Shown piece after piece: positions 2,620 through 63,394 of a DNA stretch of 64,000 nt. The notes beneath the pieces were generated by a model. It saw only the letters and a list, made by a program, of their open reading frames with translations, was not told where the DNA came from and did no database searches. Position 1 is the stretch's first letter; each line of letters starts with the position of its first letter. Origin of the DNA: Bilabrum cf. latius (lineage: Eukaryota). Location of the stretch: NCBI GenBank assembly GCA_965178125.1, contig OZ237738.1, positions 1,426,001 through 1,490,000 of the forward strand, in the 5' to 3' direction. The position numbers and the translations under genes were made by a program.

Positions 2620-5600
2620 ATGGCAACTTAGTCGTCCACAATGCATGGTATACGGGTTCTATAGCTAGCCAGTGCGGGGGAAAGCGCGTTTTGCTGCGCT
2701 CTACAGGTCCGTAGCTAGCATTTACTCCTAGATTGCGGGTGGTCCGAGGGTCTTGCGCATGTGTCTCGCCCAAAGTTTAATCTGTGGGTGTTTCTCAATG
2801 CTGAAAGAAACATACTCGCGGTCTTCAGTTTGCCGTTTAACTTGACTGCGAGTTTAAATCGCTCAAAACTCCTCACCGCAGACTACCAAGTGCTCCAGAG
2901 GCTGTGTTGGTGTCCCATGGGACTTTGGATCATGTCGGAGCTCTGCCAGAGTTTGTGAAGAGAAATAATGGGAAGTACATGGTCCTGATGACGCGCCCAG
3001 TGCACAAGCAAGCACGTGTGAGTTGTTGCAGCGGGTTGCGTACTGCAAACTAGATCGATTCCGTGATTTTGGATGGCTGGTTCTCCCGCCCATAGTCTGC
3101 ATTCCTCCGCAGCTGGCTTTATACGAGCTCGCGCTTTCTCATCGTTCCGTTGGAAGCCCCAGCAACGTGTCTCTGGAGGACGTCGACCGCTGCCTGCGCA
3201 CCACGGCCCAGGGCGGCCCCGTGCGGCTGCTGTCGGTCGGCGAGGAGGTCCGGTGCGGGGCATCCACGCTAGTGCCGCACAGGGCCGGACGCACGTTGGG
3301 CGGGTGCGTGTGGCGGATCACCGCCGGGGAGCACACGGTGGTGTACGCCCCGGACTTCAGTCCCAGGAACGAGTCGGCCGTGGACCGCTGCGTCCTGCCC
3401 TCCGAGGGGGCCGGGGGGCTCTTCGGGAGGGCCGCACTCGTCATCACTGCGGCCTTCCCCAGGTGCAGCGATGCGGTGGCTGCCATACAGCAAGCAAGCG
3501 GCACTGGGGGCGACTAGAAGCAACAGGCGACAGGGGCGGGCTCTCAGGACAACTCGTCCGCATCCACGGGACCAGGCGAAGTAGACAGGGAAGACACGAA
3601 ACCGCCGACCCTGCCCCGCCCATCCAGCACCAGCACCAGCACCAGCACTAGCACTACCTTCAATCGCAGTCGTCACACCCCACCATCAGCCTACGTGCCC
3701 TCTCTAGTCCGCGACAGCGACCTGGCCTCCAGCGTGAGGCGGGTCCTGCGGCGGGGCGGAGACGCCCTCGTGCCCCTGGAGACCGCCTCCCGTGGGGTGG
3801 AGGTGCTTCGGAGGCTGCACGAGGACTGGGACGGGCGCTACAGCCTGGTGGCCCTCGGCAGGCTCAGCAAGCATGCCACGAGGTACGCTGCGCTGCACCT
3901 TGAGTGCGCCGCGCGCGACCTGGCCAACCAGTTCAACGAGACGAGGAAGAACCCCTTCGCCCTGCCACAGGTGAGGCACGTGGCCTCCGTGGAGGAGCTC
4001 AAGAACGTTCCTCGGCCCATGGCCATCGTGGCATCGTGGCCCAGCTTGGACAGGGGATCGGCCCACCGGCTGCTGCCCGCCATCCTGCCCAACCAAGCCA
4101 GCTGCATCTTCCTCACCGAGCCGCCCAGGCCGGGCACGACCGCGGCGGTGCTGGCGACGCTGCCCCGCCCCGCCGAACTGGTCATGCTGCGGCGGTTCAG
4201 GAGGCGGCGCACGGCCAGGGAACAAGAGGAGCACAGGGCGGAGATGGCCAGGGCCAGGGCGGCGAGGGAGGCGGCGGCCACGCGAGAGGCCGCGGAGCGG
4301 GCGCTGCAGAGCTCGTTGAATGCGGCAGACGCAGAGGGCGACACTGGTGACGGTCAGACCGACAAGGGGGCGCGGGAGGGTGCCAGCGGTGGGGTAGGGA
4401 ACAGCGGCAGCGGTGCCGCGGCGGGTTCGACTGGAGCTCCAAGTCGGGGGCCGGGCAGGTACCAGCGCGCGCGCCTGCGACTCTGCGTGCGGTATGGGGT
4501 GCTTCCCCACGATGACAAGGCTCCCAGGGCGGAGGACGGGGACGACTACGGGATCCCTGCGGATGTTTCCTGGTTTGAGGGGCTGCCCAAGGGGGAAGAG
4601 GTCACGGGGAGGTCGGGGGCGGAGGCAGTGGTGGCGCAGGACATGTCGGACAAGACGGCAGCCGACGAGGCCGCGCTGGCGCTGAGATCGGAGGCGGCTG
4701 GCGGGGCCGAGAGCGGGGCGGCCGACCGGCTGGATCGGGCGACGGAGGCTGCTGCGGGGGAGATCGCCGGGGACAAGGTGGGCGGGGGCGCCTCGGGCCA
4801 GGGAACAAGCGGGGGGAGAGCCGGCGACGACGACGGCACAGTAGTGGACCTGTCGCCCATGCGGGTGGTGGCCCGATGCGACGTTGCCCTGGTGGAGCTC
4901 TCGGGGCGCGCGGACGCATCCTCCATCGCGGCGATCCTGGAGAACACGCAGGCACAGCGGGTGGCGTTTGTGGGTGGTGCCCGCAGGTCTGCGGAAGCCG
5001 CCATCCAGCAAATGTCCACCTCGGGTGCCGCCAGGCTGCAAGCGGCCAGGTGGCTGGCAGCGGGGGAGTCCATCCAGTGCGCCGCCCCCCAGCTGCGCAT
5101 CGAGGCGCACATCCACCCGAGCCTGCAGAGGCCGGATACCGCCAGCAGGTCCGGCGGGATCGGGCTGATGCCCGTTGAAGCTGACCTCCTGGTTGACGTG
5201 GGCCAGCGGTCGGCGGGACCCGGGGCGAAGCGCAAGCGGGAGGTGCACCTGGTACCGTCCACGCGTCCCACGTCGGGCAGGGTGCCCGTTCTGCTGGGCT
5301 CCAGGGCGCCCACGGTGGCCACCGTCGGGCGCAAGCTCGACAGGGCGGGTTTGGTGGCGCGGCTCGTCGACGGGGCCATACACGTTTGGGCCCAGGAGAG
5401 CAGCGGCTCGGCTAGCAAGGCCGGAAGTGTAATGGGTACCGATGTGACGAGTGGTCCTCCACTCGCGGTGGTCCGCGTTGTTCCCTAGAGGGAGGTGGGG
5501 CGCGCCCGTAAGCGGATCAGGTCCGAAGCGCGAGCCGCCCGGGAGGCCCTGGAGCTAGCAGCCGCAGAGGACGCGGCTGACGCGCAGGAGGCCATGGTGG

Positions 5601-5941
5601 ACGAGGGAGGCAGCAGCGAGGACGGAACAGGAGCGGGTAGTAAAACTGGCGCGAGAGCCAGGCACCGCCCGGAGGCGGTCGAAGCTTAGGACAAGCTGGC
5701 TAGAGCCGCTGGTGCCATATCGCGCGAGCCGTGGCTGGCGACTCCCGCTGCCCTGGCTGAGGGAGAGCACGATACCCTGGTGCTGATGGGGGACGCCCCG
5801 CCCGTGCCCCGCTCCGATGCCGCTCTGGTGGAAGGCTCCACTGCGGCGGGTGAGTTCAGCGTGGTGATGGCAGAGGGCAGGCCGGGGCCCGTGCTGGACC
5901 AGGTGCGGAGGGTGCTGGCGGGCATGTTCGTGCAGGGGTGA
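2620..5941 (+). CDS. CPSF2: Cleavage and polyadenylation specificity factor subunit 2 (CPSF100)
   Basis: Exon 1 from ATG 2620 reads 'MAT*SSTMHGIRVL*LASAG...VRS*HLLLDCGW'. Exon 2 reads 'EAVLVSHGTLDHVGALP'. Later motifs are 'AGRTLGGCVWRI', 'VVYAPDF', 'GGDALVP' and 'ELSGRAD', and the C-terminus is 'AEGRPGPVLDQVRRVLAGMFVQG' TGA. Introns lie at ~2763-2881 (donor uncertain) and 3018-3112. There are six in-frame TAGs. Confidence 0.9.
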
Positions 5942-6264: not shown

Positions 6265-8077
6265 TCACCAAGCCCCCAACGCCGCCGCCTTTGAGTCCGC
6301 CATTCGCTTCATGGCCGCCTTCGCGGACCGCTCCATGGGCCGCAGGAAGGTCCTCTCGAAACCGTCAAGGAATGGCTGCAGGGCTGTACCCTTGCCGCCC
6401 GTGGCGGCCGCGGCGGCAGCCTTGGAGGAAGAGGAGCTGGCGGCACCTGACGAAGAGGAGGAGGCTGCGGCCCCGCTGGCCTTCTCCCCCGCCGCTGCGG
6501 CCTCCTGACAGAGCTCAGCAATGGTGGGCACGTCGAAAGGGTCAAAGTCGTCGCACTTGGATGGCTCGATGGGCACGCAGACCCGCCCCGTCTTGGGGTG
6601 TACCACGAAGGGCGACTTGAGGAGATGGTTCATGTGCGTGGACACGTTGACGTCCAGTCGGGGGAAGGTCAGCAAGAAGACCAGACGGGGGACGGACTTC
6701 TGGAGGTCCTGCACCTTGCCGGCATACCTCCTCGCGTCACTGGGAGTCTTTGTGAGCGCCTTGATGGCATTCGACACTCCCTGCTTTAGGATGTCCCAGC
6801 GCCTTGCAGGGGTGATCTTGGAGCCGGCTTTCTGCCATGCCTCCCGAATGGCCTTCTTGAGCTCCACCCCGGGCACCTCCAGGTCGGGCAGCATGGCTAG
6901 GATCTTCTCCCTGAGCTCCTTGCTCTCGTCCGACAGGTATCCCTGGCCGCCCTTTGAGGCCCCCGGTGCGATCTTCTCCACGAACATCTGCTCGAGGTCC
7001 TCCAGGGCGCGCTGCATGGCGGGGTGCAGCGGCCAGGTCAGGTGGCAGGAGCCCAGGGGGTTCTCCTTCGTGCCCGCCGTGACGGCGCTGAAGTAGTTCA
7101 CCACGGCCGTCCTGCCCTCGTCCGACAGCGCCCTCGCTGCCTTGTCGCACACCCAGCAATGGATACCACGCCGCCCTGAATACACCCAGAAGATCTGCCT
7201 GAATCCGAAGTCCTCCCTCAGGCCCCTGTCCACCACCTTGAGCGCAACGGTCATGAATGGCCAGCACCGAGGGCAGATCTTGGCCCCCGAGCAGCAGGTC
7301 CTGATGTCGTCGTAGTCCGTGAGATCCACGTCGAAGACCAGCTCGCGCTCCACGGGGAAGAACGCCTCCTTCTTCACGCTCTCGTGCCGAGAGGGCGCCA
7401 TGGAGAAGACGGCCCCAATGTCGATCTTCTTTGGGTTCTTGGCCTGGATCTGGCGCTTCATGTCGGCCTCGTCCTTGAAGCTCAGGTAGCGGATGTACAC
7501 CTCATCCTCCATCGTGTCTCCCACCGTGAAGGAAATCTCACGCCTGGACATGTATGCTTTCTGCACCGCGGGGTCTTCTGAGTGCGGGTCTGCGGACAAC
7601 GCAAGAGTGCGAGCGAAAGAGTGTGCAGAAGGTGAGGCGACCAAGTCACAGGTTGCGAGACAGCACGCAGCGGCAAAGCGGGTCTCACCCTGGCAGTACG
7701 AAAGCCATCGAAACATATGACGATACGGAAACACTTTCTGGTAGTATATTCTGAGCAGAGCCGGGTTGTAGGTACCGACAAGAGCTGCTGCTTTCTCCGC
7801 CCTGGTGAGCTCGCGCTCTTCCGTAGCTCCATATGCCTTGGCCGGGGTTCCGACCGATGAGCCAGCACCAGATGATGCTGGGACTGTGCTCGAGTCGGGC
7901 GCCTTTCTCTTTCGACCTGCGAAACAGACAGCCCAGAACGACCATTGCAAGATTCAAAACAGCGAATCAACCATAATCACGGGATCACCGAGAAAAATCT
8001 CCGCAGTTCCTTGTATATGAAAACATACCTGCTAGTGGAAGCGATGGGGAGGTCACTGGATCCTACAGGGCTTGCAT
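6265..8077 (-). CDS. PRIM1: DNA primase small (catalytic) subunit
   Basis: Motifs 'REISFT', 'KIDIGAV', 'ERELVFDVDLTDYD', 'YSGRRGIHCW', 'PRLDVNVS' and 'HLLKSPFVVHPKTG'. Introns at 7590-7688 and 7917-8028. The proposed exon 1 'MQAL*DPVTSPSLPLA' contains a TAG at 8063-8065. Ends TGA. Confidence 0.93.
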
Positions 8078-8199: not shown

Positions 8200-11100
8200 A
8201 TGCTGCGCAATGCTCGGCATCTTAAACGAAGCACCATTAAAATTCTTGGGCTGTAGCACCAGCTACGCCAGTCATTGGGCGGAGGTACCTTGATTTGGCA
8301 GCCACAAGTACGATAGTTCTGGTGGCGATCAGATGGCGGCAACGATGGGAAGAACGGGGATGGAAAGAATGCTTCTAAGGAGGAATCAACGCAATCAAAT
8401 GATACCGTGAGCTGTTCTGCTTTAGGGCGCCGCTCAAACTTGCGTGCGATCGCAACCGCTTCCTTTGCAGCCGTTGCCACGTCCTTGACTATTCGGTTGG
8501 TCGGGCATGGGAAGTAGGATGGTCGGGTGAATAGTGCTGGCAACACAGACAAATATTTCTATCTCTTGTGACTTGACTACTCGCAGAAGCCAAGCACGAA
8601 GCCGAGCAGTGCCACGTCTATCCCACAAGCAAAGCCAGCAGATGCTTCGCCACGCTTTCCGCGAGGCTCTGGTCTGCGAGCAGCCGCGGCGCCAGGCCCA
8701 GAATCACCAGATAGTTCCAATAACTCCAGTAATTCCAGCGAATAGTCGTCGAGTGGCTCAGGAAACGATAGCGACGGCGGGGGCTCGGGCGGGAGCTCGA
8801 GCGGCTCTGGCGCCGTGGCCCGCAAGGGCATCGGCGAGCAGGCCCCCAAGCCCCCCCAGGTTCTGGCCCTGCCGCTGCGACGCCCATGCATGCCCTGGTT
8901 CCTTTCATAGATGTACACGTCTGATCCCAGGCTGGTCCAGGCGCTCACCGCCACCAAGGCCTCCCAGGTCCCGTACGTCGGACTGTTCATGGAGAAGCCA
9001 GGCGTGCCCGGGGCCGGTCCCGGGGACGAGGGGGGCGACACTGGCGAGATCTCCACGCAGGCGTTGCCCCTGAATCGACTGCACGACGTGGGCACGCTTG
9101 GCTCCCTGCAGACCCTGCAGTCCACTCCTGACGGGGGCGTGGTGGCTTGGTTCCTCGCCCACAGGCGCATCCGGGTGCTGGACGCGGTGCGGGAGGACAA
9201 GCTGCCTCCTCTCGTGAACGTGCACCACGTGCAGCAGAGGATGGCCGAGGCGCAGGACGTGAAGGTGAAGGCCCTGTCGAACGAGATCGTGTCCACCATC
9301 CGCAGCGTGGTCAGGCTCAACCCCATGTTCAAGGAGCAGATGCAGTACATCACCCACAGGGTGGAGATACACGACCCGTACAGGCTGGCGGACTTTGCCA
9401 CCAGCACGACGAGCGCCGACCCCGAGGACGTGCAGCGCGTGCTGGAGACGGAGTCCCTGGAGGAGAGGCTGCACCTTGCCCTGCAGCTGCTGCGCAAGGA
9501 GGAAGAGCTCTCGAGGGTGCAGCAGCAGATCGCGTCCAAGGTGGACGAGACCATGAAGGAGCAGCAGCGCAAGTACTTCCTCAACGAGCAGCTCAAGACG
9601 ATCAAGCGCGAGCTGGGCATGGAGAAGGACGACAAGGACGCTTTGGTGCAGAAGTTCAAGGAGAAAGCAGAGGAGGTCGACATGCCCGCGACCGCCAGAG
9701 AGGTCTTTGACGAGGAGATCGACAAGCTGGCGGTGCTCGAGAGGAACTCGTCCGAGTTCAACGTGACCAGGTCATACCTCGAGTGGCTGACCTCCATCCC
9801 GTGGGGTGTCTACTCCGAGGACAACTTCGACATCGAGAGGGCGAGGGGCGTCCTGGACGACGACCACTTCGGGATGAAGGACGTCAAGGAGAGGATCCTG
9901 GAGTTTATCGCAGTGGGCAAGCTCAGGGGCTCCGTGCAGGGAAAGATCATGACGCTGGCGGGGCCTCCCGGGGTAGGCAAGACATCGATCGGGCAGAGCG
10001 TGGCGAAAGCCCTCGGCAGGGAGTTCTACAGGTTCAGCGTGGGCGGGCTCACGGACGTGGCGGAGATCAAGGGGCACAGGAGGACGTACGTGGGCGCCAT
10101 GCCGGGCAAGCTGATCCAGACCCTCAAGGCCACCAAGGTGAGCAACCCGCTGGTGCTCATCGACGAAGTGGACAAAGTGGGGCAGGCGGGGTACAGGGGC
10201 GACCCGTCAAGCGCTCTGCTGGAGCTGCTGGACCCGAGCCAGAACTCCACATTCATGGACCACTACCTGGACACGCCCGTGGATGCCTCCAAGGTGCTCT
10301 TCCTGTGCACCGCCAACGTCCTGGACACCATCCCGGGTCCCTTGCGGGACCGGATGGAGATCATCAATCTGAGTGGGTACGACGGCAACGAGAAGGTGGA
10401 GATCGCCAGGAGGTATCTGGAGCCCAAGACCCGCAGGGAGACGGGGCTTGAGGTCGGCGGGGAGGGCGTGCCGGACTCGCTCTTGCTGGACGAGAGCGCC
10501 ATCCGGTCACTCATCCGGTGGTACTGCCGCGAGTCCGGAGTGCGGAACCTGGAGAAGCACGTGGAGAAGGTGTACCGCAAGGCGGCTCTCAAGCTGGTGC
10601 AGGCGAGGGAGAAGGGGCTCAGGGAGCTGGGATGGTCTCAAGAGAGGATCACCAAGGTGGAGCAGGCAGCGCACAAGCGGGCAGAGGCCAAGGATGCCGC
10701 CAGGAAGAAGAAGGAAGACGAGGAGAAGAAGGCGAACGTGGTGGTGAGTGGGACATAGGGGCACGGGGACGGGAGCAGTGGCAGCGCTGAATCTGAATCT
10801 TCCTCCAAGGCTAGCGAATCTGTGGCTGCGGCTGCTACTGCTCCTGCTGCTGCTGAATCAGGAGACGAGGCGCAGCAGCAGTAGCCTGAAACCGAGGAGG
10901 AGGCGGCTGAGAGCGCCGACTCCAGCGTGGTTGACGCGGTGGGAGTTGCTAAGGACATCGAGGAGGAGGTAGTGGAGGCTGGGGAACAGCAGGGAAAGAG
11001 CGAGTAGGAGTAGGGGTAGGAGGATGCCCTCGTGTTCCCCGAGCACATCCCTGGCGTGCACGACAAGGATTGGACCATCACGAGCGATAACTTGGAGGAC

Positions 11101-12045
11101 TACGTGGGCAAGCGGGTCTTCACCTCGGACAGGATGTACCAGCAGCCGCCTCCCGGCGTGGTGATGGGCCTGGCCTACACGAGCATGGGCGGCGCGGCCC
11201 TGTACGTCGAGGTAACAACCACCTCGGAGCAGTGGGAGGGTCCCAAGGACGGCAAGGGCAAGGGCGAGGGCAAGGAGGGCGAGGGTGAGGGCAAGGACAA
11301 GGGTGAGGAGTCGGGCGGTGGAGGCGGCGGGAGGGCTGCACTGATGGTGACCGGCAAGATGGGGGATGTCATGCAGGAGTCTAGCAAGATCGCGCACACG
11401 TTTGCCCGGCGGTTCATCCGGCGGTACAAGGGCATCAAGGTCGCTGGGGAGGCTGGCTTCGACCATGAGGGCAACCCCCTGCCGACCAAGGGGGGGGTTG
11501 CTCCCTCGGATGCTGCGATCGAGGAGGAAAGGGAGTCTAGGCTGGGCGCTCTGGAGCGGTTCCAGCTGCACATGCACGTGCCCGAGGGAGCGACCCCCAA
11601 GGATGGCCCCAGCGCGGGGTGCACCATGGTCACGGCCCTGCTGTCGCTGTCCACCGGGGTGCCCGTGAGGTCTGACGTGGCCATGACGGGCGAGGTGACC
11701 CTCACTGGGAAGGTGCTTCCTGTGGGGGGCATCAGAGAGAAGAGCATGGCGGCCAAGAGGGCGGGGGTCACCTGCCTTGTGCTGCCAGAGGGGAACAGGA
11801 AGGACGTGGAGGAGCTGCCCGAGCACCTGACAGAGGGCATGCAGTTCCACTTCGCCAGCGAGTACAAGGACGTGTACGAGGTGGCCTTCGATCACGCGGA
11901 GCAGAGGCGCAGGGAGGCGGAGGGCAGGACGGACGAGGAGGCCGTGGGAGGGGGAGGGGCCAAGGGGACGGACGGGCCGGAGCGGTGGGCGGCGGGGTGG
12001 TCTGGTGGTGGATCGAGGCTGCATGAGGAGAGCAGGCTGATCTGA
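8200..12045 (+). CDS. LONP1: Mitochondrial Lon protease (~1,220 aa)
   Basis: Basic presequence-like N-terminus 'MLRNARHLKRSTIK' and an intron at 8407-8586. Lon-N 'VLALPLRRPCMP', Walker A 'GPPGVGKTS', 'IKGHRRTYVGAMPG', catalytic 'PKDGPSAG' and 'VGGIREK'. Nine in-frame TAGs, including a CAG CAG CAG TAG run at ~10873-10884. Ends TGA. Confidence 0.95.
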
Positions 12046-14486: not shown

Positions 14487-14578
14487 TGAAATTCTCAACG
14501 CAGGTATGATTGCAGCAATGAATCGTTCAGGTTTCTGATTTGACGTTTGCCCCTGCCTGTCTAGTCTGCCTAGCCAGC

Positions 14579-14939
14579 GGAGGAGCTGCCCGAGCACCTG
14601 ACAGAGGGCATGCAGTTCCACTTCGCCAGCGAGTACAAGGACGTGTACGAGGTGGCCTTCGATCACGCGGAGCAGAGGCGCAGGGAGGCGGAGGGCAGGA
14701 CGGACGAGGAGGCCGTGGGAGGGGGAGGGGCCAAGGGGACGGACGGGCCGGAGCGGTGGGCGGCGGGGTGGTCTGGTGGTGAATCGAGGCTGCATGAGGA
14801 GAGCAGGCTGATCTGGTGTTGGTTTGAATGGCATTGGCTGGATTGATGTGGATGTCCAAGGATTGCACAGCACCGTGTCCATCCCATTTTCATCCCGTGT
14901 ACGGACCCGAAGCAAGTTCTTGTGTTGCTCGCACTTCCG
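14579..14939 (+). pseudogene. Duplicated 3' fragment of Lon (last ~80 codons + 3' UTR), copy 1
   Basis: About 99% identical to 11808-12168 ('EELPEHLTEGMQFHFASEY...'). The stop TGA has mutated to TGG, and the 5' part of the gene is absent. Confidence 0.92.
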
Positions 14940-14949
14940 TATTTTGAAG

Positions 14950-15528
14950 TTACAGAAATACAGAAATACATTGTTGGGTAAAGATTCCGTAAGCACCCAG
15001 ATGCACCGTCGCCTCCGAAGGGGTTTGGGTGATCACCTAGATCCAGGAGAGCCCTCAAACAAGGACTACAAGACCCCCGACCCTTTCAGGCCAAAGGCCC
15101 CCCGTTCTCAGCCTATGCCGCCGAGTTCCCATTCTTCGCCATCAGTGTGGTCCCCCACAGGCCCCAGCCTAAGTTGCGGGGGGGATCTGATATTTTGTGG
15201 ACTCAACTCAAAAGCGCACGCTATCACGAAGAAACATCTGGAACGAGGGCCCGGGACCTACCAGACTTCACGCTTCAGCTGCAATGGCCTAAACCACCTA
15301 AGCTCCACCCTGGGGACCCATTTCCCCTTGGGGAGCGTCAGCATTCCCGTTCCCTCCGGCGCCCGCTGCCGGCACCCCGTCCTGCTTCCCGTTCTGAGCC
15401 AACCCTGCCTTGACGTTGGCGATCGCCACGGCGAGGTTGTTGTTTTCGGCTGCCCCTACAGCCAGGCTGGCAAAGTCCTCCCGGACCGCCCTTGCGAGCG
15501 CCCGTTTGGCCTTCGCTGCAGCCTGAGT
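14950..15528 (-). mobile_element. Short retroelement-like insert sharing its 3' end with the 18408-20016 element
   Basis: The terminal ~215 bp are ~90% identical to 18408-18620, including a (TGTATTTC)n-type tail on the minus strand. The remaining ~360 bp are unrelated to that element and look coding on the minus strand ('EDFASLAVGAAENNNLAVAIANVKAG...'). Confidence 0.55.
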
Positions 15529-15686
15529 TGCTTCACTGGTCAGTAACGTGTGGTTTTAGAGGCGAGCACGGTCTCGGTCTAGAGCCCAGCGATACCAGAC
15601 TCCGTTCGAGTAGGGCCTCAATCAGCCGTCTGAATTCAACATAGCCAGGGCAATTGAGTAGAGTCCGGAGAGTCTCTCTGTTAGAT

Positions 15687-17882
<2,196 letters not shown>

Positions 17883-18008
17883 GGACGAGGATGAGGATGA
17901 GGTTAAGATGCTATGATGGCACACTCAACGCAGGTATGATTGCAGCAATGAATCGTTCAGGTTTCTGATTTGACGTTTGCCCCTGCCTGTCTAGTCTGCC
18001 TAGCCAGC

Positions 18009-49454: not shown

Positions 49455-49714
49455 TACTTATCTGTCCTGAATCTATTGCGACTAAGGAGGTTCACAGAGC
49501 TGTGCAAGTTCAACCTTTGGATTATTTTTGGTCCCACAACCACACTAGAAGTACCGCTCGCTCTGTTTAGCAGAAAGTATACTCCCAGTAAATTCGAGCC
49601 GTTTATGGTTGCGCGCAGTTTCGAAGAAAAGCAGACTGCAACTGAACGGCAACGAATTTTACAAAACCGACCTCACGTGCCAAACCTCCTTAATTCCCGC
49701 GCACGAAAGTAGCC

Positions 49715-53752: not shown

Positions 53753-56587
53753 TCAGACATCCTGCTCGTGCACAGCCCCACTTGCCCCGCTATCCTATGC
53801 CTGCTCCTCCTTCCCTTTGCTATTATCCTGTGCAGCACTCGCGGCATCCATTACCCACCGGAGCGACTCTGCCAGCGCCCCCACATTGCGCCCGTCCCTC
53901 CCGCACACTGGAATCACCGGCAGGTCCGTGGCCATGCGGAGGGCCTTGAGACCCGCCTGCGCCCCCGGCAGGTCCATCTTGGTCGCAACCACCACCGCCG
54001 GCCGCCTCGCCAACTCGGAATCGTATCTCGCGACCTCCCCCTGCAGCGCCTTCAGGTCCTCCACAGGACCCTGAGAGAGCCGGGGGTGCGCCCGCCAACC
54101 GGGACCGGGACCGCCGGCCGCAGCGTCCGCGGCTGCTTCCTTGGCGGCTTTGTCTACCTCTAGTTCATCACCGGCGCTTGCAGTCCCACCCTGCCCTTGC
54201 CCCTGCCCCTGCTCCTCAGCCACCCCTGGCTACCCCTGCCCGTGCCCGTGCCCGTGCGCTTGCCCCATCCTGGCACGCAGGGCCGCCAGAGCATCGGCGC
54301 CCTCGGCGGACAGGCCCTCCTGCAGCGCTGCTTCTCGTGCCTTCTGCTTCTCCTCCTCCATCGCAAGCTCGGCCTGTTCCCTGACAGTCTCCTCTTGTTC
54401 CCTGGCCTCCTCCCTGGCCATCTCGCTTGCCAGCCAGCGGGCGTCCTGCTCCATGTCGTGCCGCACCGACTCGGCCGCGATGTCGACCGACACAGAGGCC
54501 GGGCCGGCGGCATCGACAACGTACACTAGCACGGCAGTGCGCTGCACGTGCCGCAGGAAGTCCCGGCCCAGGCCCCGGTCCTCTGCGGCACCGGCGATCA
54601 GACCTGGGATATCAGCGATCCGCAGCTTGCGACCGTCCTGAAAGTGCACGCTACCCACAACCGGGTGTAGCGTTGTGAATGGAAAGGCGGCTACCTTTGG
54701 CCTGGCCCTAGACACGGATCGGAGGAGCGTGCTCTTCCCAGCGTTGGGGTACCCCACCAGCCCCGCATCCGCCACTGCCTTGAGCTCCAGTTCCAGGAAC
54801 CTGAGTTCCCCAGTCTGCCCCTGAACGTGGGTCGTGTCCGCCTGGTACTGCAGCTTGCCCGGCAGCTGCTTATTCCCTCGGCCGGGTGCGCCCCCTCGGG
54901 CCACGAGCACCTCCTGCCCCTCCTACGTCAAGTCTCCCAGCACGACCAGCCGGTCCGTGTAATCGGCCCTCACGAGGTATGACGAGTGTCCCAGCTGCCC
55001 CTCTCCCTCTCGATCGGACGCCACGGGCCCGAGTGACCGAGCCACGGACTGCCGCCCGCTCGAGGTGCTTCCAGCAGTACCAGTAGCAGAAGCAGCAGTA
55101 GCATCAGCATGACTAGCAGTGGTGCTGGTCGCATCCACATCTGTGTCTGATTCTGGTTCCGAGTCGTCGTCGAAATCCGATTCCGAGTCGGCACCTTCCT
55201 CCAGGACTCGCCTCAGCAGATCGTCGTCTCCTCGTCGCCCGCCGCTACCGGTCGCCACAGGCTACCCTCTGCTTCCCCTGCCCTCCCGGCTGGCCTGCCC
55301 CGTTGATGAGTCATTCATACCGATACCAATCTCGCCAATACTATTGCTATCACTATCGCTGTTGCTATCGCTCCCGTACTCATCGCTCTGCACGCGAGCC
55401 ACCAGTCCCTCCAGCGCATCACCAGCGGCACCCTGCCCCTGCCACCGTGCCCGCCCCACGCCCATGCCCCCAGCCACTACGCCCTCCATTCTGCCACGTG
55501 CTTCGCTATCGATTTCTCTGCTATCGAGCCCAATGCCTCCTTCGTCGTTTTCCTCCCCCTCCCCCTCCCCCTCCCCCTCCTCCTCCCCTTCGCTCTCGCT
55601 GTCCTCTTGCCCGAGCACCTGCCCGCGAGCGAGCGCCCGGCCCTCTGGGCTCCTCCTCGGGGGCATCTTCCCGCGAGGACCACGCTCTAGCACGCCCGCG
55701 CCCATGACAGGGACGTTGTTATCGGCATACTCGTCCCGGAAATCATCGTCATCCTCCAATTCGTCAAAGCTCTCGCCGCTCCCCAGCAGGCCCAGCTCCT
55801 CCAGCGTGTCACCACCTCCCTGCCAGTCCTCGTCGTCGCCTCGGGCGGCTGCAGCGGCCCGAGCAGCGTCGCTGCCTGGAGCTTGTTGTATCTCGGCTAG
55901 AAACTTACCCATCGCTCCCGGAAAAGAGGCCTGTATGTCCGCAGCTGTCTCCTGGATGTTGTAGGTCTGCAAGGCAGTGAATTGGAAGGGAACAGGTAAC
56001 ACTAACAGGACATCGAGTGGCTGCATAAAGGACTTGCATGCAGCTTAGATGAGCTCATGTCTCACTCTGTGCACTTCCTTGACCGTGGTGCCCACAGGCA
56101 CGTGCACGATGGTGTCTCGACCCCTCCCACCACCTTTGTTGCTGCCCTGTGCATCCCTGCCGTGCCCACCATTAAAGACGAATGTGCTGAAGCTGAGATC
56201 GCCTAGTGAGCTCACTGCGCGTATGACTACGTTGCCGCCTCGGCCTCCGGATCCACCGGCGGCCTTGCGCTTCGCCTCCTGCAGCTGCTCAAAGGCAACA
56301 ACTCCTTTACCGCCATTGCCACCGTTGACCTGTACCCTGACGCGATCCATAAAAGTCCCACGCTTTCTTCGTTCGGCACCAACCCCGGCGGAATAACTTT
56401 TGATGCTGTCATCGTCACGACGAGAGCGTGCCGAAACTCGAAAGGTGCGCCTGTCTTGACGACGGCGTGGTCGTACACTGGCTACTTCTGGTCCCCACAG
56501 TTTCGCTGCACCTGGCCTAGCTGTTTGTATGAAGCAGTACAACAAAGTCCTACATCGATTGGAGAGCTGTGCCCTTTGTCGGAGCAT
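53753..56587 (-). CDS. Obg-family GTPase, probably mitochondrial (MTG2/ObgE-like, ~910 aa)
   Basis: 'FMDRVRVQVNGGNGGKG', 'GGSGGRGGNV', 'VPVGT', 'GDLT*EGQEVLVARGG', 'LELKAVADAGLVGYPNAGKST', 'PFTTLHP', 'DIPGL' and 'TKMD'. Intron at 55967-56065 and four in-frame TAGs. Ends TGA at 53753. Confidence 0.9.
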
Positions 56588-56679: not shown

Positions 56680-57922
56680 ATGTCCGTTTCTGACGTTGCG
56701 CCAGGAAGCTATGTCAAGGTGTATGCTGATGGAGTCTGGTGGCAGGGGCTTGCATTGCAGCTGCTGGATCGTGGCGCCAAGGTGCAGCGCCAGCCGCTCG
56801 AAGGTGAGAACGAAAAGAGACGTGGCAGAGACACGTGCCAGTTCCCTCGCGGCCACTGGACGCAATCTTAAGGCATTTAGCTGTACAAAGTTCGGTTGTT
56901 TTGCACCATGATGACCTTGTTTGGCCAATTCGAGTTTGTTATGCGCAGGCGCTTCGATGCATGCTGCCCATTCCGAGCATGCAAACATGGCTATCGTGAT
57001 CCCTAGCTCAGCTGAGGCATCTAGGATTGACTCAGCGCTTGCAAGAGCGCACTCTGCACTCTCAAGTGGTGGCAAACTGGTGGTGCTGCTTCCTGGAGCT
57101 GGCTCCGACGTGGCTCAGTTCAGCGTGCGCGTGCTGGTCGCCGGATTCGAGCAATCGGTGCAGTCGCACGCCGCCGGCATGGGCCCTTGCTTGCTTGCTC
57201 GAAAGTCATCAGTGGCGCAGGCATTATCGGCTGCCGCTACCACCGTTGCGGCTGCGGTTCCTCCGTCCGTCCCGAAGCAGCCCGTGGTCACCCCGGCGAG
57301 CACAGACGCGGTTCCGCTACGGCGCCGCAGAAAGAACAAGGCGTCCGCTGGCTCGAGCGCGGCCTCTGGCTCGGGATCAGGATCCACCATACTTTCTTCC
57401 TCCTCCCCTTCCTCGGGCTGGGACGCGGCAGTGGCCTCAAGCTCTGTGCAGGAGAGCAAGGAGTCCGGTGCTGGTGTGACGAGTGTGCTGGTGGACGAGG
57501 ACGCGCTGCTGGCGGCGGATGCGGGTGCCTTGGACAGCGTGAGCAAGGCTGCAGGCGGGTGCGAGACCAAGCGCCGGGCCTGCAAGAACTGCTCCTGCGG
57601 GAGGGCACAGAGAGAGGAGGCAGAGCTGAGGCAGGGAACAACGGCGGCGGCGGCAGTGGGGGCCGCGACCGAGTCCAAGGACGGCGAAGCAGCGGCAGAA
57701 GGAACGCCAGGCGACGCTGCTGAGCTGGCAGCCAAGGCGCAGGCAGCCACGGGGACAGACGCACCGACGAGCGCCTGCGGGAACTGCTTCCGGGGGGATG
57801 CCTTCCGCTGTGCCTCGTGCCCGTACAAGGGGCTGCCCGCATTCAAGCCGGGGATGGGGGCGCAGCTGGTGCTGGATGTGGGAGGCACGGGGGATCTGGA
57901 TGCTCCGATCGAGACGGAGTGA
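56680..57922 (+). CDS. CIAPIN1: Anamorsin / Dre2 Fe-S cluster assembly factor
   Basis: 'LVDEDALL', '[14 protein letters not shown]' and '[28 protein letters not shown]'. Proposed intron at 56804-56948. Ends TGA. Confidence 0.9.
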
Positions 57923-58640: not shown

Positions 58641-58988
58641 TCAGGTAGGCTTGTAGATGCTCTTGCGCTTCTTCGCTGCCGCCGCGCGCTCTGCCTCTGC
58701 AGCCTCCACGCGCTCCTTGGCCTCCTCCACCCGCTTGAATAGCGGTGCATTCTTCAGCATATCCGGTAAAACTATGAATCTAACTGCGCTACCACGCAAG
58801 AAAACGTGATCCATTCGGGCAACCTTCCCTGACTTTGATCTGGCAGTGACCGCAGACAGGTGACAGTTCATGTTTGGCTCTGCCTCGTCAAGCTGACCCC
58901 TGTACACTTCTCCGGTGGTCAGCTCAACGATGACTGGGTGGCCCTCGCCTTCGTGCAGAAGCTTGATGGGGATACTAGCGGACGCCAT
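58641..58988 (-). CDS. SNRPD3: Small nuclear ribonucleoprotein Sm D3
   Basis: 'IPIKLLHEGEGH...GEVYRG...NMNC...FLRGSAVRFIVLPDMLKNAP'. Ends TGA. Confidence 0.95.
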   Translation of the reverse strand: MASASIPIKLLHEGEGHPVIVELTTGEVYRGQLDEAEPNMNCHLSAVTARSKSGKVARMDHVFLRGSAVRFIVLPDMLKNAPLFKRVEEAKERVEAAEAERAAAAKKRKSIYKPT

Positions 58989-59407: not shown

Positions 59408-62400
59408 ATGGCAAGCCAGGTATCGGACGGGGTTCGGTAGGATAGCGAGCGAGATAATCTGCTAAGAGGCTCCGGTGGCAGCTCGCGCGGCCTCGGTGTT
59501 GATAAGGGGGGTTAGCGACGAGCCAACGAGCGTTCGGACAGAAGCGTTGGCCTTGGGACCGGAGGCGAGCAGGGAAACCACCCTCAAGACGAGAGCAAGG
59601 CATCAGTAGGTGCAGCGACTGGACCTGGAAGTCGCCTTCGCGAAGGACACGGTGATCCTGGGGTGAGAAGCAGCGTCGGTTTCGGTGCCAGCGGCCGACG
59701 GGTTGCCGTGCCACCGCAGGGCGAGAATGCATCTAGTCGGTACGCTAGCAGCAATTTAGAAGGGCCGCACGACGGACGAGCAGAGCCTCGCTGGCGCTGG
59801 ACGCGCGGCGACGGCCTGGTGGAATCTGCGAAAGTGGGGTTCTGCGAGCGTCGCGTGGCGAGCATGTTTTGGCCCGAGAAGCTGCTCGTGATGCTGCAGG
59901 CCGTGCAGTGGTTCGCTCTGCTGTGGGCCTACATGCGGCCCCGGCCGTGGCCTTTGAATTTCCGTAGGGCCATCGGGCCCGTGGTCTGGGTGAACGCCGA
60001 CTGGGTCTCTGACCTGGCGCGACGGAGGGACGGGAGGGAGGTGGACGTGGGGACGGCGACGACCTACGTGTCTCCCTGGGGAGAGATGGAGGGCTTCTGG
60101 ATGTACGCGACGGGGTGGGCGGCTCTCCCCTTCGCGGTGATCGTGCTAGCATGGGTGGGGGAGGGCGTGGCATGGTGCCAGGAGCGCCACCAGCAGCGCA
60201 CCCGCATGCGCTGGAGGGACGCACTGAGGGGACTCGGAATCGCGCTGCAGCTGCCCGCACTCGTCACACTGCTCCGCGTCTACGACTGCGAGGCCTACAC
60301 CGAGAGCTTCCTGGAGATCGCGCCTGACGCAGAGCCGCAGACCGTGTATAGGATGGGCGCAGAGCCCAGCTTCGAGTGCCTCTCGTGGCAGCACTGGGCG
60401 CTCATGGGGGGCTGCCTGCCCGCGGCCCTTCTCTTTGCCGTAGGGCTGCCCTGGTACCTGGGTGTGGTCGCGAGCAAGAACACGATCTACGATGCGCCCA
60501 GGCAGCACGAGAGGTACCTGAGGTGGAGGGAGGCCGAGTACGAGCTGGGCCTCGGTGTGCAGTGGAGGCACGCGGGCATGTGGGTCATGTCGTCCTTCCG
60601 CAGGGGTTTCCTGCACCCCTGGGACAGGGCTCTCTGGGCTGCCTCCTCGAGCGCTCTCGCTCTCATGTGGATCTTCTTGCGGGACTACCCCGAGCTGCAG
60701 GTCGACCTGTTCCTCGTGGTGATTGTTCTCTGGGGCATCAGGCAGTGGTACCACCCGGCCTTCCGCTCGATGACCACCAACCTCGTGGCCTGGGCCTGCC
60801 ACTGGTGGATCGCGGTGTGCGCCTTCTTGACGGCGCTGCGGGTGCACGGTGTGCGCACGGAGGTCACCGTTGCCTCCCGATTCGCGGACTGGCTGCGGCT
60901 GTCGTGCATCGTTGCGGCAAGCCTCTGCGGCGGTGCCGTGCTGCTGGCGCTGTGGCCCCACTGGTGCCTCCCTCGCTTCCTGCGGGACCCCTGGCCCACG
61001 GCCGTGCTGACGGACCAGGCGGACCTGCCCAGGCTCGGCATGGAGGAGCTGGCGGGCCTGGGGCCGGCCCTGCCCGAGGTGGGCCCGCGGCTGTTCCCCG
61101 CCGGTATCGCCGCGGACCGTGCTGCGAAGCAGGCCGCCGCGAGGGGTAACGACGCTGCGCAGAAGGCGGTGGCAGCGGCCGCGGCCGTGTCTCCGTACTC
61201 TGGCTCAGCCGGCGACCTGTCCGAGGGAGACGCCTACCTCTTCGGGATGTCACTGTGGCCGGGGCCACCAAGGAGACCGTCCTCCGCGGGGAACAGCAGC
61301 AGCGGCGGGAGGGGAAGGGAAAGGGGGGCCGGCGGCGGCCCGCCGTCGTCCGCCGGTGGGATGTCGCCCACGAGCCAGGGAACAGCGGGCGCGGCGCGGG
61401 CTCTGCTAGCGGACTGGGGCCTGGCCGGGGACGACTCCTCGGAGGCTCACAGCGACGGGAGGATGAGCAGCGGGGAGGCGGGCGGGCTGGGGTCGGGGTC
61501 CGCGTCGGTCCGGTCCCCTGGGGTCGGTGGGGGCGCGGGTGTGTTCCCCGGGGATGCCTATGGGAGCGAGGAAAAGGGAGGCCCCCGCAGTGGGGGCAAG
61601 GGGCGGGGTGTGGGCCTGTCCCAGCTGCTGCGAGCCAAGGCCAGCTTCCTGCGTGACAGGCGCAGGATCGAGCACAGGGCAGCGGGCTCGCGGGCGGGTG
61701 CGGGTGCGCTGCGGAGACAGAAGCTGGCCATGGGCCTGCACTCGTCACGAAGGCTGCTGGACCCGCTGGGTGCGGATGGCGGGGCGGGTGGCCGTGGGGG
61801 CACCCTGGGCGCCTTTGGGGCTGGGGCAGGGGCCGTGGGTTCGCGCCCCGGGACTGCATCGGGGTACAGCACTGCCTCTGGATCCACCGCGGCCGCTCCC
61901 CGTGCCGACTCTGTGGCGCGAAGCCGGGGCAAGCTGTCCAGCGCGGGGGGGTTGAAGCATGCAGCCGCGGATCTCGGGCAGGACGATGGCTCGCTGGCCG
62001 CCGTGGAGAAGGGGCAGATGTCGGCCGAGCAGGCCGAGCGGGAGCTGTGGAAGCAGCTATTCTGGAGACCCCTCGACACGCTGGACGTGCTTCGGCTAGA
62101 GAGGAGGTGGGTGCTGATGGTGCGCGCTGCCAGAGACAGGATCTCGAGGGCGGTGCTGGGGCCTCCAGAGCTCGTGCACTGCCCCGCGCTGCGAGCCGCC
62201 GCCCGGCAGCTGAGGGAAGACATGCAGCTGGCCAACAAGGCCGGACACGTGTTCGCGTGGAGCCTGCAGGAGGCCATGGAGGACTGCGCCGACCTCGCGC
62301 AGGCGGCCTCTCCGATTTCCGCGCTCGAGGGTAACCGCACGCTACAAAGGACCGTGATGGACCTCTCCCGCCGGATGCGTCAGCGGCGGCTGGATTTCGC

Positions 62401-63394
62401 CCTGGTGGACCCGAGGAAGCGACGCATCCTGATGAAGCTGCTGGCCCTGCGGTGCTGGCTGGGCCGCCGGCGGGTCGCCAAGGTGCCGTTGCGTCAGCTG
62501 CGGGCGCTCACGATGGCCCTGCGGAGGGGGGACGCGGACGCGGCGGCTGCCACGGACCAGAGCATCCTGGACGGGCTGGAGGGGGTGCACGAGGTGGAGG
62601 ACATCGACGACGACGATGAGGATGAGGATATAGATGAAGGGGCTGCTGGTGGTGGTGCGGGCGCTCGCGAAGACGCCGAGATGGGGGTGGGGCTGCCACG
62701 TGCGGGGTCGCAGGCAGGGGCGGGCATGCTTCCTTCGCAGGGATCCGTGCTGCTGATGCCTGGCAACACGGACGAGAGGCAGGGGGCCGGTCTGTTCGGG
62801 CTGCACCCCGGGGCCACTTCGCTGGCCGCTGTGCGGGCTGACAGCCTGGAGGGGCTGGGGCCCTCCACGCTGCAGTCGCTGACGGGCGCTGTGCTCGCGA
62901 TGCTGCGGCGAGGGGCCGAGTCGGAGCGGGCCCGGGAGGAGGCCAAGAGGGCGGAGAGGGGCGCTGCGGCGCTGCTGTCGGGAGACCGGGTGCAGTCGGA
63001 CTCGGAGGACTCGGAGGGTGCCGGGGTGGACGAGGGCAAGGGCAAGGGGGCGAGCGGGGGGATGGAGGTGGAGGACGACGGGGGAATGGGGCTCAGGCGC
63101 AGGGGCAGGGAACAGAGGCAGGGGGGAGGGGGTCTGGGGGAGGCCGCGCGGCTTCGGTATGCCTCGCTGGTGCGGGGGGGGCGGCTGACCCGGAGGGAAC
63201 AACGGGAGCTGCAGGCCGCCCGGCTGCTCGTGCGTCCCCTCCGGGAGCGGTGGGACAAGCTGGTGTCCGGCTGGGAGGAGGCGTACAGGGTGGGGCACAG
63301 CGGGCTGGACCCCTCGGCGGGTGAGCAGGCCTCCATCGTGGGCTGGTACGAGGCCAGGAAGAGGCTCGAGGCAGCCACGCCAAGGCTGTGGTGA
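59408..63394 (+). CDS. Uncharacterised multi-pass membrane protein with long cytosolic tail
   Basis: A 1,243-aa ORF with ~8 hydrophobic segments in the N-terminal half. The frame extends upstream to ATG 59408 through two TAGs, so the start is uncertain. Ends TGA. Confidence 0.7.

What the first reader, a model, noticed from the sequence alone, without database searches (positions are those of the whole stretch)
2620..63394. TGA is the only stop seen, and TAA is absent both as stop and as sense codon
Seen: all 19 complete host genes, plus the retroelement ORF, terminate in TGA. I found no in-frame TAA in reconstructed exons, against ~70 TAG, although CAA is used regularly. Inference: if TAA were Gln (table 6), some in-frame copies would be expected. 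If it were a normal stop (table 15), some genes should end with it. UAA and UAG meanings are usually coupled, so an uncoupled or nearly unassigned UAA would be the rarer outcome. High GC content alone could also explain its scarcity.
Basis: partly seen in the sequence, partly recalled or inferred. Interest (0 to 1): 0.85.

Follow-up and report, generated by a model that had tools for sequence, protein, structure and literature searches.

The report
TAG read as glutamine, TAA unused
This GC-rich relative of the flagellate Cafeteria reads the stop codon TAG as glutamine and ends every gene here with TGA, while TAA never appears in a reading frame, so its meaning is still open.

Summary
In my gene models 19 of 19 complete genes end in TGA. 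Their 18,022 in-frame codons hold 64 TAG, 0 TAA, 92 CAA and 587 CAG. TAA is not missing from the DNA: it occurs 60 times out of frame in the same coding strands and 129 times in 9,952 non-coding bases.

TAG is a sense codon and most likely glutamine. Summed Pfam scores over 9 families are Q 755.7, E 748.9, K 748.6, R 742.7 and Y 732.5 bits. Close homologues carry Q at several TAG sites. Spliced transcript contigs carry the TAGs unchanged.

TAA as an ordinary glutamine codon (table 6) is disfavoured: about 9-10 copies are expected, and P(0) is about 1e-4 to 3e-4.

TAA as a rarely used stop is not excluded. P(0 of 19) is 0.38 at 5% use and 0.14 at 10%.

My best reading (about 0.55) is a table-15-like code (UAG=Gln) in a stramenopile, with TGA favoured by GC bias. 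A truly unassigned UAA gets about 0.25. No genome, tRNA genes or eRF1 were available, so the window cannot settle this.

Four literature searches found no report of a stramenopile nuclear code variant.

The parts
2641..5941 (+). CPSF2-like gene. Exons 2641-2783, 2882-3017 and 3113-5941. 5 in-frame TAG, 0 TAA. Stop TGA at 5939-5941.
   Evidence: Pfam Lactamase_B_6 and Beta-Casp. Exon 1 reads HLLLDCGW in frame (sequence; model). The introns are inferred, not shown by RNA.
6265..7914 (-). DNA primase small subunit (first exon not resolved). 0 TAG, 0 TAA. Stop TGA at 6265-6267.
   Evidence: Pfam DNA_primase_S, E 1e-42. Homologues.
8200..12045 (+). Mitochondrial Lon protease. Exon 1 8200-8406, intron 8407-8586, exon 2 8587-12045. 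9 in-frame TAG, 0 TAA. Stop TGA at 12043-12045.
   Evidence: PDB LONP1, E 4e-241. Contigs of runs X5 and X6 join 8406 to 8587 (GT..AG) and match with 0 other letters, while a DNA contig of run X8 runs straight through. Exon 1 translated.
12267..22346 (+). Three tandem paralogues with two ubiquitin-like domains each: 12267-14486, 15687-17882 and 20187-22346. 2 in-frame TAG (both in copy 2), 0 TAA. All three end in TGA.
   Evidence: Pfam ubiquitin. Models.
22643..27403 (+). NDK / adenylate kinase multidomain protein. 2 TAG, 0 TAA. Stop TGA at 27401-27403.
   Evidence: Pfam ADK and NDK. PDB alignments.
27607..30450 (-). DRC11 / IQCA1-like axonemal AAA protein. 3 TAG, 0 TAA. Stop TGA at 27607-27609.
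   Evidence: PDB 8glv_Ea, E 5e-101. 150 homologues aligned.
30689..33463 (-). Unknown protein with a signal-peptide-like start. 7 TAG, 0 TAA. Stop TGA at 30689-30691.
   Evidence: Open frame and codon bias only. No Pfam hit. This is the least certain gene.
33591..34323 (+). GINS subunit Psf1. Exons 33591-33686 and 33802-34323. Intron 33687-33801 holds a TAA at 33772. 1 TAG. Stop TGA at 34321-34323.
   Evidence: Pfam Sld5. Exon 1 found in another frame, with GTGAGT...CGCAG signals.
34586..35818 (-). Porphobilinogen synthase (ALAD). 0 TAG, 0 TAA. Stop TGA at 34586-34588.
   Evidence: Pfam ALAD, E 1e-130. Homologues.
36135..47999 (+). Giant single-exon C2-domain protein of 3,955 codons. 15 in-frame TAG, 0 TAA. 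Stop TGA at 47997-47999.
   Evidence: One open frame with GC by codon position 0.72/0.56/0.81. Pfam C2. Two fragments from relatives at 92-94% identity.
48142..49480 (-). Ankyrin-repeat gene with two inferred introns. 0 TAG, 0 TAA in the exons. Stop TGA at 48142-48144.
   Evidence: Pfam Ank. Exon and intron signals read.
49715..50542 (+). SAS-6 N-terminal domain protein. 4 TAG, 0 TAA. Stop TGA at 50540-50542. An in-frame TAA lies 8 codons upstream of the ATG, in the 5' UTR.
   Evidence: Pfam SAS-6_N. PDB 9y9z_20, E 1e-65, has Q at 2 of the 4 TAG sites.
50784..53426 (-). Guanylate-binding-protein-like GTPase. 4 TAG, 0 TAA. Stop TGA at 50784-50786. The protein ends in CTIS, 21 codons after its last TAG.
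   Evidence: Pfam GBP and GBP_C. PDB GBP1 has Q at one TAG site. C-terminus.
53753..56584 (-). Obg-family GTPase. Exons 56584-56066 and 55966-53753. Inferred in-frame intron 55967-56065 holds a TAA. 4 TAG. Stop TGA at 53753-53755.
   Evidence: Pfam GTP1_OBG and MMR_HSR1. GTGAGA...TTGCAG signals. Not checked by RNA.
56957..57922 (+). CIAPIN1 / Dre2-like protein. 0 TAG, 0 TAA. Stop TGA at 57920-57922.
   Evidence: Pfam CIAPIN1.
58641..58988 (-). Sm/LSM protein. 0 TAG, 0 TAA. Stop TGA at 58641-58643.
   Evidence: Pfam LSM.
59408..63394 (+). Unknown multi-pass membrane-like protein. 2 TAG, 0 TAA. Stop TGA at 63392-63394.
   Evidence: Open frame with GC by codon position 0.71/0.57/0.83. No Pfam hit.
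2..2509 (-). Partial gene whose 3' end lies off the window. 7 TAG, 0 TAA.
   Evidence: Open frame. No Pfam hit.

Best explanation
The window comes from a GC-rich, intron-poor flagellate on the Cafeteria (bicosoecid) side of the stramenopiles. Its nuclear code has UAG reassigned to glutamine. Inferred, not shown: UAG is read by a tRNA-Gln with anticodon CUA, which pairs with UAG but not with UAA, and eRF1 no longer releases at UAG. UGA is the working terminator. UAA is not a glutamine codon. Most likely it is still formally a stop that GC bias has driven to very low use. That would make the code NCBI table 15-like (UAG=Gln; UAA and UGA stops) with stop usage skewed almost wholly to TGA. Shown here: TAG is sense and is best read as Gln; 19 of 19 genes end in TGA; in-frame TAA is absent. 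Inferred: the tRNA, the eRF1 change, and the residual meaning of UAA.
For: (1) TAG is sense. There are 64 in-frame TAG in 18,022 codons of frames with strong codon bias, including 15 in a single 3,955-codon frame. Spliced transcript contigs of runs X5 and X6 cover Lon 8198-8406 plus 8587-11898 with 0 other letters. So its 9 TAG are neither spliced out nor edited. The GBP-like protein ends in a CaaX-type CTIS 21 codons after a TAG.
(2) TAG is best read as Gln. Summed Pfam bits over 9 families: Q 755.7, E 748.9, K 748.6, R 742.7, Y 732.5, and L at least 18 bits below Q. The nearest SAS-6-domain structure has Q at 2 of 4 TAG sites. At DRC11 site 1, Q is found in 2 of 2 aligned PDB chains and in 20 of 34 homologues. 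GBP1 has Q. An 82%-identical relative has Q at DRC11 site 348.
(3) TAA is not a free Gln codon. There are 0 in frame, against 9-10 expected from the CAA/CAG or TTA/TTG ratios, yet 60 out-of-frame copies on the same strands.
(4) Precedent and logic. Reading UAG while sparing UAA needs only anticodon CUA (PMC5304391, passages). In AT-rich UAG-only ciliates a valid stop (UGA) is used in only 1.7-13.1% of genes (PMC11687900, passages). The mirror case in a 64% GC genome would leave TAA at a few percent, which fits 0 of 19.
(5) Lineage. The nearest named homologue is Cafeteria, at 46% identity. The window groups with it at SH-like support 99 in a FastTree of 40 of the 120 listed primase homologues.
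Against: No TAA stop was seen, so the claim that UAA still terminates has no direct support. If stop choice followed the local TAA:TGA ratio, the TAA share would be 0.10 (out-of-frame coding, 60 TAA against 542 TGA) to 0.30 (non-coding, 129 against 296). Then 0 of 19 has P from 0.14 down to 0.001. In every published UAG-only nuclear code that I read, UAA is the main stop: 56 UAA against 15 UGA in the rhizarian exLh, and 92.6-100% UAA in the ciliates. An all-TGA pattern is therefore unprecedented for this kind of code. The Gln call rests on about 16 sites inside Pfam domains and leads Glu and Lys by only about 7 bits. At DRC11 sites 348 and 521, E is commoner than Q among homologues (35 against 24 of 109, and 79 against 7 of 118). 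No tRNA gene lies in the window and no genome is held.
Confidence: 0.55

Rival explanations
1. UAA is effectively unassigned. eRF1 has narrowed to UGA, as in organisms where both UAR codons are reassigned. Only a tRNA-Gln(CUA) exists, so UAA is neither decoded nor efficiently terminated, and it is purged from every reading frame. This could be a stage on the way to table 6. It could also descend from table 6, after GC pressure removed the TAA codons and the UUA tRNA was lost.
For: TAA is absent in both roles: 0 of 18,022 in-frame codons and 0 of 19 stops. It is common enough out of frame (60 copies) and in non-coding DNA (129 copies) that mutation clearly supplies it. If TAA were a neutral alternative stop at the local 10-30% share, 0 of 19 has P 0.14-0.001.
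Against: Nineteen stops are too few: a real stop used in 2-5% of genes gives the same picture (P 0.68-0.38). I know of no nuclear example of an unassigned stop codon. That is recall plus four searches, not an exhaustive check. I had no tRNA set and no eRF1 sequence.
Confidence: 0.25
2. This is ordinary table 6: both UAA and UAG mean Gln and UGA is the sole stop. TAA is merely very rare because of GC3 bias and a scarce tRNA-Gln(UUA).
For: It is the commonest kind of nuclear stop reassignment, with at least 13 independent coupled cases (PMC5304391 abstract, listing). TGA as the only stop is exactly what table 6 predicts (19 of 19). TA-containing words are depleted genome-wide: TAA is at 0.34 of expectation.
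Against: There are 0 TAA among 64-66 in-frame TAR codons. With the CAA/CAG or TTA/TTG bias, P is 7e-5 to 3e-4. With the most extreme pair bias seen (0.07), P is about 0.01.
Confidence: 0.07
3. The stop codons have context-dependent dual meanings: UAG, or UAA, also terminates at gene ends, as in Condylostoma or Blastocrithidia.
For: Such codes exist (PMC5304391 background passage).
Against: No gene here needs a TAG or TAA stop. All 19 frames run on to a TGA, and where the C-terminus can be judged it lies after the last TAG (the GBP-like CTIS).
Confidence: 0.03
4. The pattern is an artefact: the in-frame TAGs are sequencing errors, pseudogenes or unrecognised introns, and the code is standard.
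For: Most introns here are inferred, not verified.
Against: The 64 TAG are spread over 15 of the 22 coding segments counted, with intact conserved domains. Runs from separate studies reproduce the sequence with 0 differences, including spliced transcript contigs that carry 9 TAG. TGA never occurs in frame before the gene end.
Confidence: 0.01

Closest known systems
NCBI table 15-type nuclear codes (UAG=Gln; UAA and UGA stops): Iotanema spirale (PMC5304391) and the phyllopharyngean ciliates Hartmannula sinica and Trochilia petrani (PMC11687900)
   Same: UAG alone is reassigned, to glutamine, and UAA is not used as a sense codon. The proposed mechanism is a tRNA-Gln(CUA).
   Different: Those lineages are AT-rich and use UAA for the great majority of stops (93.5-100% in the ciliates). 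Here 19 of 19 stops are TGA and no TAA stop is seen. The lineage, a stramenopile, is also different.
NCBI table 6 (ciliates, dasycladalean algae, hexamitid diplomonads; also Streblomastix): UAA and UAG = Gln
   Same: UAG=Gln and TGA is the only stop observed.
   Different: In-frame TAA is absent here: 0 against about 10 expected.
Oligohymenophorean ciliate PL0344 (PMC10553269; title and abstract seen in listing): UAA and UAG code for different amino acids
   Same: UAA and UAG have uncoupled meanings.
   Different: There both codons are sense. Here UAA shows no sense use.
Rhizarian exLh (PMC5304391): UAG=Leu; UAA and UGA stops
   Same: UAG-only reassignment in a non-ciliate protist.
   Different: Leu fits worst of the six amino acids tested here, at least 18 bits below Gln. 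In exLh UAA is the main stop (56 UAA against 15 UGA).
Unassigned sense codons in bacteria with extreme base composition (CGG in Mycoplasma capricolum; AGA and AUA in Micrococcus luteus). These are recalled and were not checked here.
   Same: A codon disappears from reading frames under mutational bias. This is the 'codon capture' stage described in the PMC11687900 discussion.
   Different: Those are sense codons in bacteria. Here the codon would be a stop codon in a eukaryotic nucleus, and its unassigned state is not shown.

Membership tests
Table 15-like code (UAG=Gln; UAA and UGA stops) | UAG is translated, as glutamine | tested here: met
   64 in-frame TAG. Pfam bit sums: Q 755.7, E 748.9, K 748.6, R 742.7, Y 732.5, L lower. 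Q at TAG sites in close homologues.
Table 15-like code (UAG=Gln; UAA and UGA stops) | UGA terminates | tested here: met
   19 of 19 complete genes end in TGA, and there is no internal in-frame TGA.
Table 15-like code (UAG=Gln; UAA and UGA stops) | UAA terminates | tested here: inconclusive
   0 of 19 stops are TAA. This fits a stop used in fewer than about 10% of genes, and equally fits no stop function at all.
Table 15-like code (UAG=Gln; UAA and UGA stops) | tRNA-Gln with anticodon CUA is present and none with UUA | not testable with these tools
   0 tRNA genes in the window. No genome is held.
Table 6 (UAA and UAG = Gln) | UAA is used in frame as a Gln codon | tested here: not met
   0 in-frame TAA against 9-10 expected; P 7e-5 to 3e-4, or 0.01 under the most extreme bias.
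Table 6 (UAA and UAG = Gln) | UGA is the sole stop | tested here: met
   19 of 19.
Unassigned codon | The codon is absent from all reading frames genome-wide | tested here: inconclusive
   Absent from 18,022 codons and 19 stops in this window only. One TAA depends on an unverified intron call.
Unassigned codon | No tRNA and no release factor act on the codon | not testable with these tools
   No tRNA set and no eRF1 sequence were available.
Stramenopiles (bicosoecid-related) | Conserved proteins group with stramenopile homologues | tested here: met
   Primase: the best named hits are Cafeteria at 46%, then ochrophytes. In a FastTree of 40 of the 120 listed rows, the window groups with Cafeteria at SH-like support 99. 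This is one gene only.

The most novel reading that the evidence does not exclude
UAA is a truly unassigned codon in a eukaryotic nuclear code. eRF1 releases only at UGA, the only suppressor tRNA is tRNA-Gln(CUA), and GC pressure has removed UAA from all reading frames. That would be a living example of the 'vanished codon' stage that codon-capture theory predicts, in a lineage (stramenopiles) where I found no report of a nuclear code change.
Probability: 0.25. Interest if true: 0.85.

Novelty: new member of a known kind. Interest (0 to 1): 0.65.

Why it matters
Nuclear genetic-code changes are rare outside ciliates. Cases where UAG and UAA have different fates are rarer still: a handful of lineages in the papers I read. 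This window adds a GC-rich stramenopile, for which four full-text searches found no report.

It is also the first case I could find of a UAG-only reassignment in which UGA, not UAA, carries termination. That gives a mirror-image test of how base composition shapes stop usage after a reassignment.

If UAA proves unassigned, it would show a stop codon at the 'extinct' stage of codon capture.

There is a practical point too. Any annotation of this genome under the standard code will truncate most genes, because 15 of the 22 coding segments counted here carry at least one in-frame TAG.

Tried and rejected
1. Whole genome: none is held. So there was no genome-wide tally, no tRNA set and no eRF1.

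3. tRNA scan of the window: 0 genes.

4. The look-up of sequencing runs: no RNA holder is listed on record. Runs X5-X7 are only guessed to be RNA.

5. Read laying was meant to look, in a relative, for TAG/TAA, CAA/TAA or TGA/TAA differences.
- Run X9 is a relative about 4-10% divergent in the listed pieces.
- Only 40 difference rows were printed and 1,159 were withheld, so no codon-level test was possible.
- Joints for the CPSF2 introns were not among the rows shown. The OBG, GINS1 and ankyrin introns lie outside the stretch laid.
- X8 proved to be the same strain (0 differences) and added nothing about the code.

6. Fragments from relatives in the protein collection ('shorter'): only 2 hits. 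Neither spans a TAG site, and neither ends at an informative codon.

7. A tempting exon model for CPSF2 (acceptor at 2828) would have placed TAA 2838-2840 in frame, opposite a conserved Leu before an 'LDC' motif.
- I rejected it because the true LLDCGW motif lies in exon 1, in another frame (2725-2745).
- The 2881 acceptor also matches the CGCAG acceptors of the other introns.
- A PDB search of that stretch was uninformative.

8. DRC11 columns alone cannot separate Gln from Glu (log-likelihood -5.18 against -5.06). The Pfam score comparison was needed.

9. The first tree run timed out. I reran it with 40 of the 120 rows under FastTree.

10. Literature: four searches and passages of PMC11412368 and PMC10120064 gave no stramenopile nuclear code variant. 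PMC6972860 gives no nuclear stop-codon usage for Cafeteria.

11. Supplementary tables were closed. The stop-usage and codon tables of PMC5304391 and PMC11687900 could refine the precedents.

12. One PDB query was mis-set and included an upstream TAA. I corrected it.


Full report
WHAT THE WINDOW IS. The 64-kb window is 64% GC and densely packed with eukaryotic genes on both strands. Pfam and PDB searches identify the following genes:
- a CPSF2-like protein
- the DNA primase small subunit
- mitochondrial Lon protease
- three tandem genes with ubiquitin-like domains
- a flagellar-type NDK/adenylate-kinase protein
- the axonemal protein DRC11/IQCA1
- GINS Psf1
- ALAD
- a 3,955-codon C2-domain protein
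- an ankyrin protein
- a SAS-6-domain protein
- a GBP-like GTPase
- an Obg GTPase
- CIAPIN1
- an Sm protein

The best named homologue of the primase is Cafeteria roenbergensis (46% identity), followed by ochrophyte algae. I built a FastTree from 40 of the 120 listed homologues, keeping the named rows and the best unnamed ones. In it the window groups with Cafeteria at SH-like support 99. This rests on one gene, but it points to a heterotrophic stramenopile on the bicosoecid side. No whole genome is held, and the window has no tRNA gene.

GENE MODELS. Most genes are single long open frames with the codon-position GC pattern of coding sequence and a matching coding-potential track. Introns are few and share GTGAGT-like donors and (C)GCAG acceptors.
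- One intron is verified. Contigs of runs X5 and X6 join 8406 to 8587 (180 bases skipped, GT..AG) in Lon, while a DNA contig of run X8 runs straight through.
- The others are inferred from homology and splice signals: CPSF2 2784-2881 and 3018-3112, GINS1 33687-33801, Obg 55967-56065, and two in the ankyrin gene.

I first considered a CPSF2 exon model that would have put TAA 2838-2840 in frame opposite a conserved Leu. I dropped it once exon 1, read in its own frame, gave the family's LLDCGW motif at 2725-2745. I also dropped it because the 2881 acceptor matches the other acceptors.

THE OBSERVATION. With these models, 19 of 19 complete genes end in TGA. The 18,022 in-frame codons contain 64 TAG, 0 TAA, 19 TGA (all terminal), 92 CAA and 587 CAG. 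Lon exon 1 adds 69 codons and 2 more TAG.

TAA is present elsewhere:

| Location | TAA count |
|---|---|
| In frame | 0 |
| Coding strand, phase 1 | 26 |
| Coding strand, phase 2 | 34 |
| Antisense to coding | 61 |
| Non-coding (9,952 bases, 54.7% GC) | 129 |

So the in-frame zero is specific and is not mere scarcity.

There are two qualifications.
- One in-frame TAA (56047-56045, minus strand) lies in the 99-base Obg segment that I call an intron on signals alone.
- I found no evidence that the repeat-like insertion near 18.2-19.9 kb is a retroelement: 0 of 5 frames hit a family at its cut-off.

WHAT TAG MEANS. TAG is certainly translated. Fifteen copies lie in one 3,955-codon frame. The spliced Lon transcript contigs match the window with 0 differences across its 9 TAG. 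The GBP-like protein carries a CaaX-type CTIS end 21 codons after a TAG.

To name the amino acid I translated eight domain-bearing stretches six times, with TAG as Q, E, K, L, R or Y. I then summed the Pfam bit scores of nine families (SAS-6_N, GBP, GBP_C, NDK, GTP1_OBG, LON_substr_bdg, Sld5, C2, ubiquitin).

| TAG read as | Summed bits |
|---|---|
| Q | 755.7 |
| E | 748.9 |
| K | 748.6 |
| R | 742.7 |
| Y | 732.5 |
| L | 18 bits below Q over eight families; GTP1_OBG no longer reported |

. The other 14 amino acids were not tested.

Direct alignments agree, but not unanimously.
- The closest SAS-6-domain structure has Q at 2 of 4 TAG sites, and N and T at the other two.
- At DRC11 site 16, Q is found in 2 of 2 aligned PDB chains and in 20 of 34 homologues.
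- At DRC11 sites 348 and 521, E is commoner than Q (35 against 24 of 109, and 79 against 7 of 118). An 82%-identical relative has Q at 348 and E at 521.
- GBP1 has Q and GBP2 has K at one site.
- At one NDK site, two PDB chains have R, and the protein's own second NDK domain reads FKAREEA at the matching place (translation).

Gln is therefore the best reading, ahead of Glu and Lys by about 7 bits (roughly 100 to 1).

WHAT TAA MEANS. Three readings are possible.

(a) TAA = Gln (table 6). If TAA shared the A-versus-G bias of the other R-ending pairs, 9-10 in-frame TAA are expected. Those ratios are CAA/CAG 0.157, AAA/AAG 0.156, TTA/TTG 0.133 and GAA/GAG 0.252. The chance of seeing none among 64-66 TAR codons is about 7e-5 to 3e-4. 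It is about 0.01 even with the most extreme pair ratio seen, 0.07 for CTA/CTG and GTA/GTG. This reading is disfavoured.

(b) TAA = a stop that is rarely used (table 15-like). Nineteen stops give P(0) of 0.38 at 5% use, 0.14 at 10% and 0.014 at 20%. The local TAA share among TAA+TGA words is 0.10 in out-of-frame coding sequence and 0.30 in non-coding DNA. A neutral choice of stop is therefore mildly disfavoured, but a biased one is not. In AT-rich ciliates with UAG-only reassignment the valid stop UGA is used in only 1.7-13.1% of genes (PMC11687900, passages). That is the mirror image of what would be needed here.

(c) TAA unassigned. The data fit this exactly, but the window cannot tell it apart from (b).

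MECHANISM. A tRNA with anticodon CUA pairs with UAG and not with UAA. A tRNA that reads UAA would normally read UAG as well. UAG-only reassignment is therefore the mechanically easy direction, and it needs one base change from tRNA-Gln(CUG) (PMC5304391, passages). eRF1 must also stop acting on UAG. All of this is inferred for this organism.

COMPARISON WITH KNOWN CODES. UAG-only nuclear codes are known from the rhizarian exLh (Leu), Iotanema spirale (Gln) and several phyllopharyngean ciliates (Gln, Leu). In all of those UAA is the main stop: 56 UAA against 15 UGA in exLh, and 92.6-100% UAA in the ciliates. Here TGA takes that place.

Four full-text searches and passages of two stramenopile papers gave no report of a nuclear code variant in stramenopiles. 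The Cafeteria genome paper mentions a non-standard code only for the mitochondrion. Supplementary tables were closed, so finer stop-usage figures from these papers were not seen.

VERDICT. The window shows a UAG=Gln nuclear code in a GC-rich stramenopile, with TGA as the only stop seen and TAA excluded from reading frames.

| Reading | Probability |
|---|---|
| Table 15-like code with extreme TGA preference | 0.55 |
| Unassigned UAA | 0.25 |
| Table 6 with very rare TAA | 0.07 |

The rest goes to dual-meaning codes, artefact and unlisted readings. The code type is known. The lineage and the stop-usage pattern are new as far as I could find. Deciding between the first two readings needs the whole genome (terminal codons, tRNA anticodons, eRF1), none of which was available here.

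Noticed in passing
window 11900-22400: Tandem triplication with a period of about 3.39 kb (contig joints skip 3,386-3,392 bases) of a gene with two ubiquitin-like domains. Each of the first two spacers carries a copy of the last ~90-100 codons of the Lon gene, including its TGA (14544-14843 and 17974-18243).
   Followed up: partly
window 18250-19900: An insertion in the second spacer of the triplication, with raised depth in three runs (bins up to 386 in X6). Its long open frames have no Pfam family. It is probably a repeat or mobile element, but nothing marks it as a retroelement.
   Followed up: partly
window 34586-35818 (-): Apart from one 88%-identical relative, the ALAD gene's nearest homologues (62-67% identity) look bacterial. 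All 9 of the 120 listed hits that name an organism are bacterial, mostly Verrucomicrobiota/Opitutaceae, and none names a eukaryote. This could be an old bacterial-type or transferred gene.
   Followed up: no
window 5900-6000: A tandem repeat of about 39 bases spans the CPSF2 stop, so that '...MFVQG-TGA' is repeated about three times (sequence). Several transcript and DNA contigs break near here (pieces end at 5936-5938).
   Followed up: no
window 50784-50800 (-): The GBP-like GTPase ends in CTIS, a CaaX-type prenylation box. I recall that human GBP1 ends the same way, but did not check this.
   Followed up: no
window 36135-47999 (+): A single uninterrupted 3,955-codon frame encodes a giant protein with one N-terminal C2 domain and a C-terminal hydrophobic tail. 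No other family was found. Only near relatives were found, at 92-94% identity.
   Followed up: partly
introns 2784-2881, 3018-3112, 8407-8586, 33687-33801, 55967-56065 and two in 48571-49130: The introns are short (95-180 bases where measured) and share GTGAGT-like donors and a recurrent (C)GCAG acceptor. Two of them (Lon at 180 bases, Obg at 99) are multiples of three.
   Followed up: partly
stop contexts of the 19 genes: The base after TGA is T in 7 genes, G in 7, C in 3 and A in 2. One gene (stop at 14484) has a tandem TGA TGA.
   Followed up: no
window 1-20000 in run X9: A DNA run from 2019, under another organism label, holds a relative about 4-10% divergent across the listed pieces (for example 194 other letters in 2,016 aligned bases). 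It is the natural partner for a codon-level comparison.
   Followed up: partly
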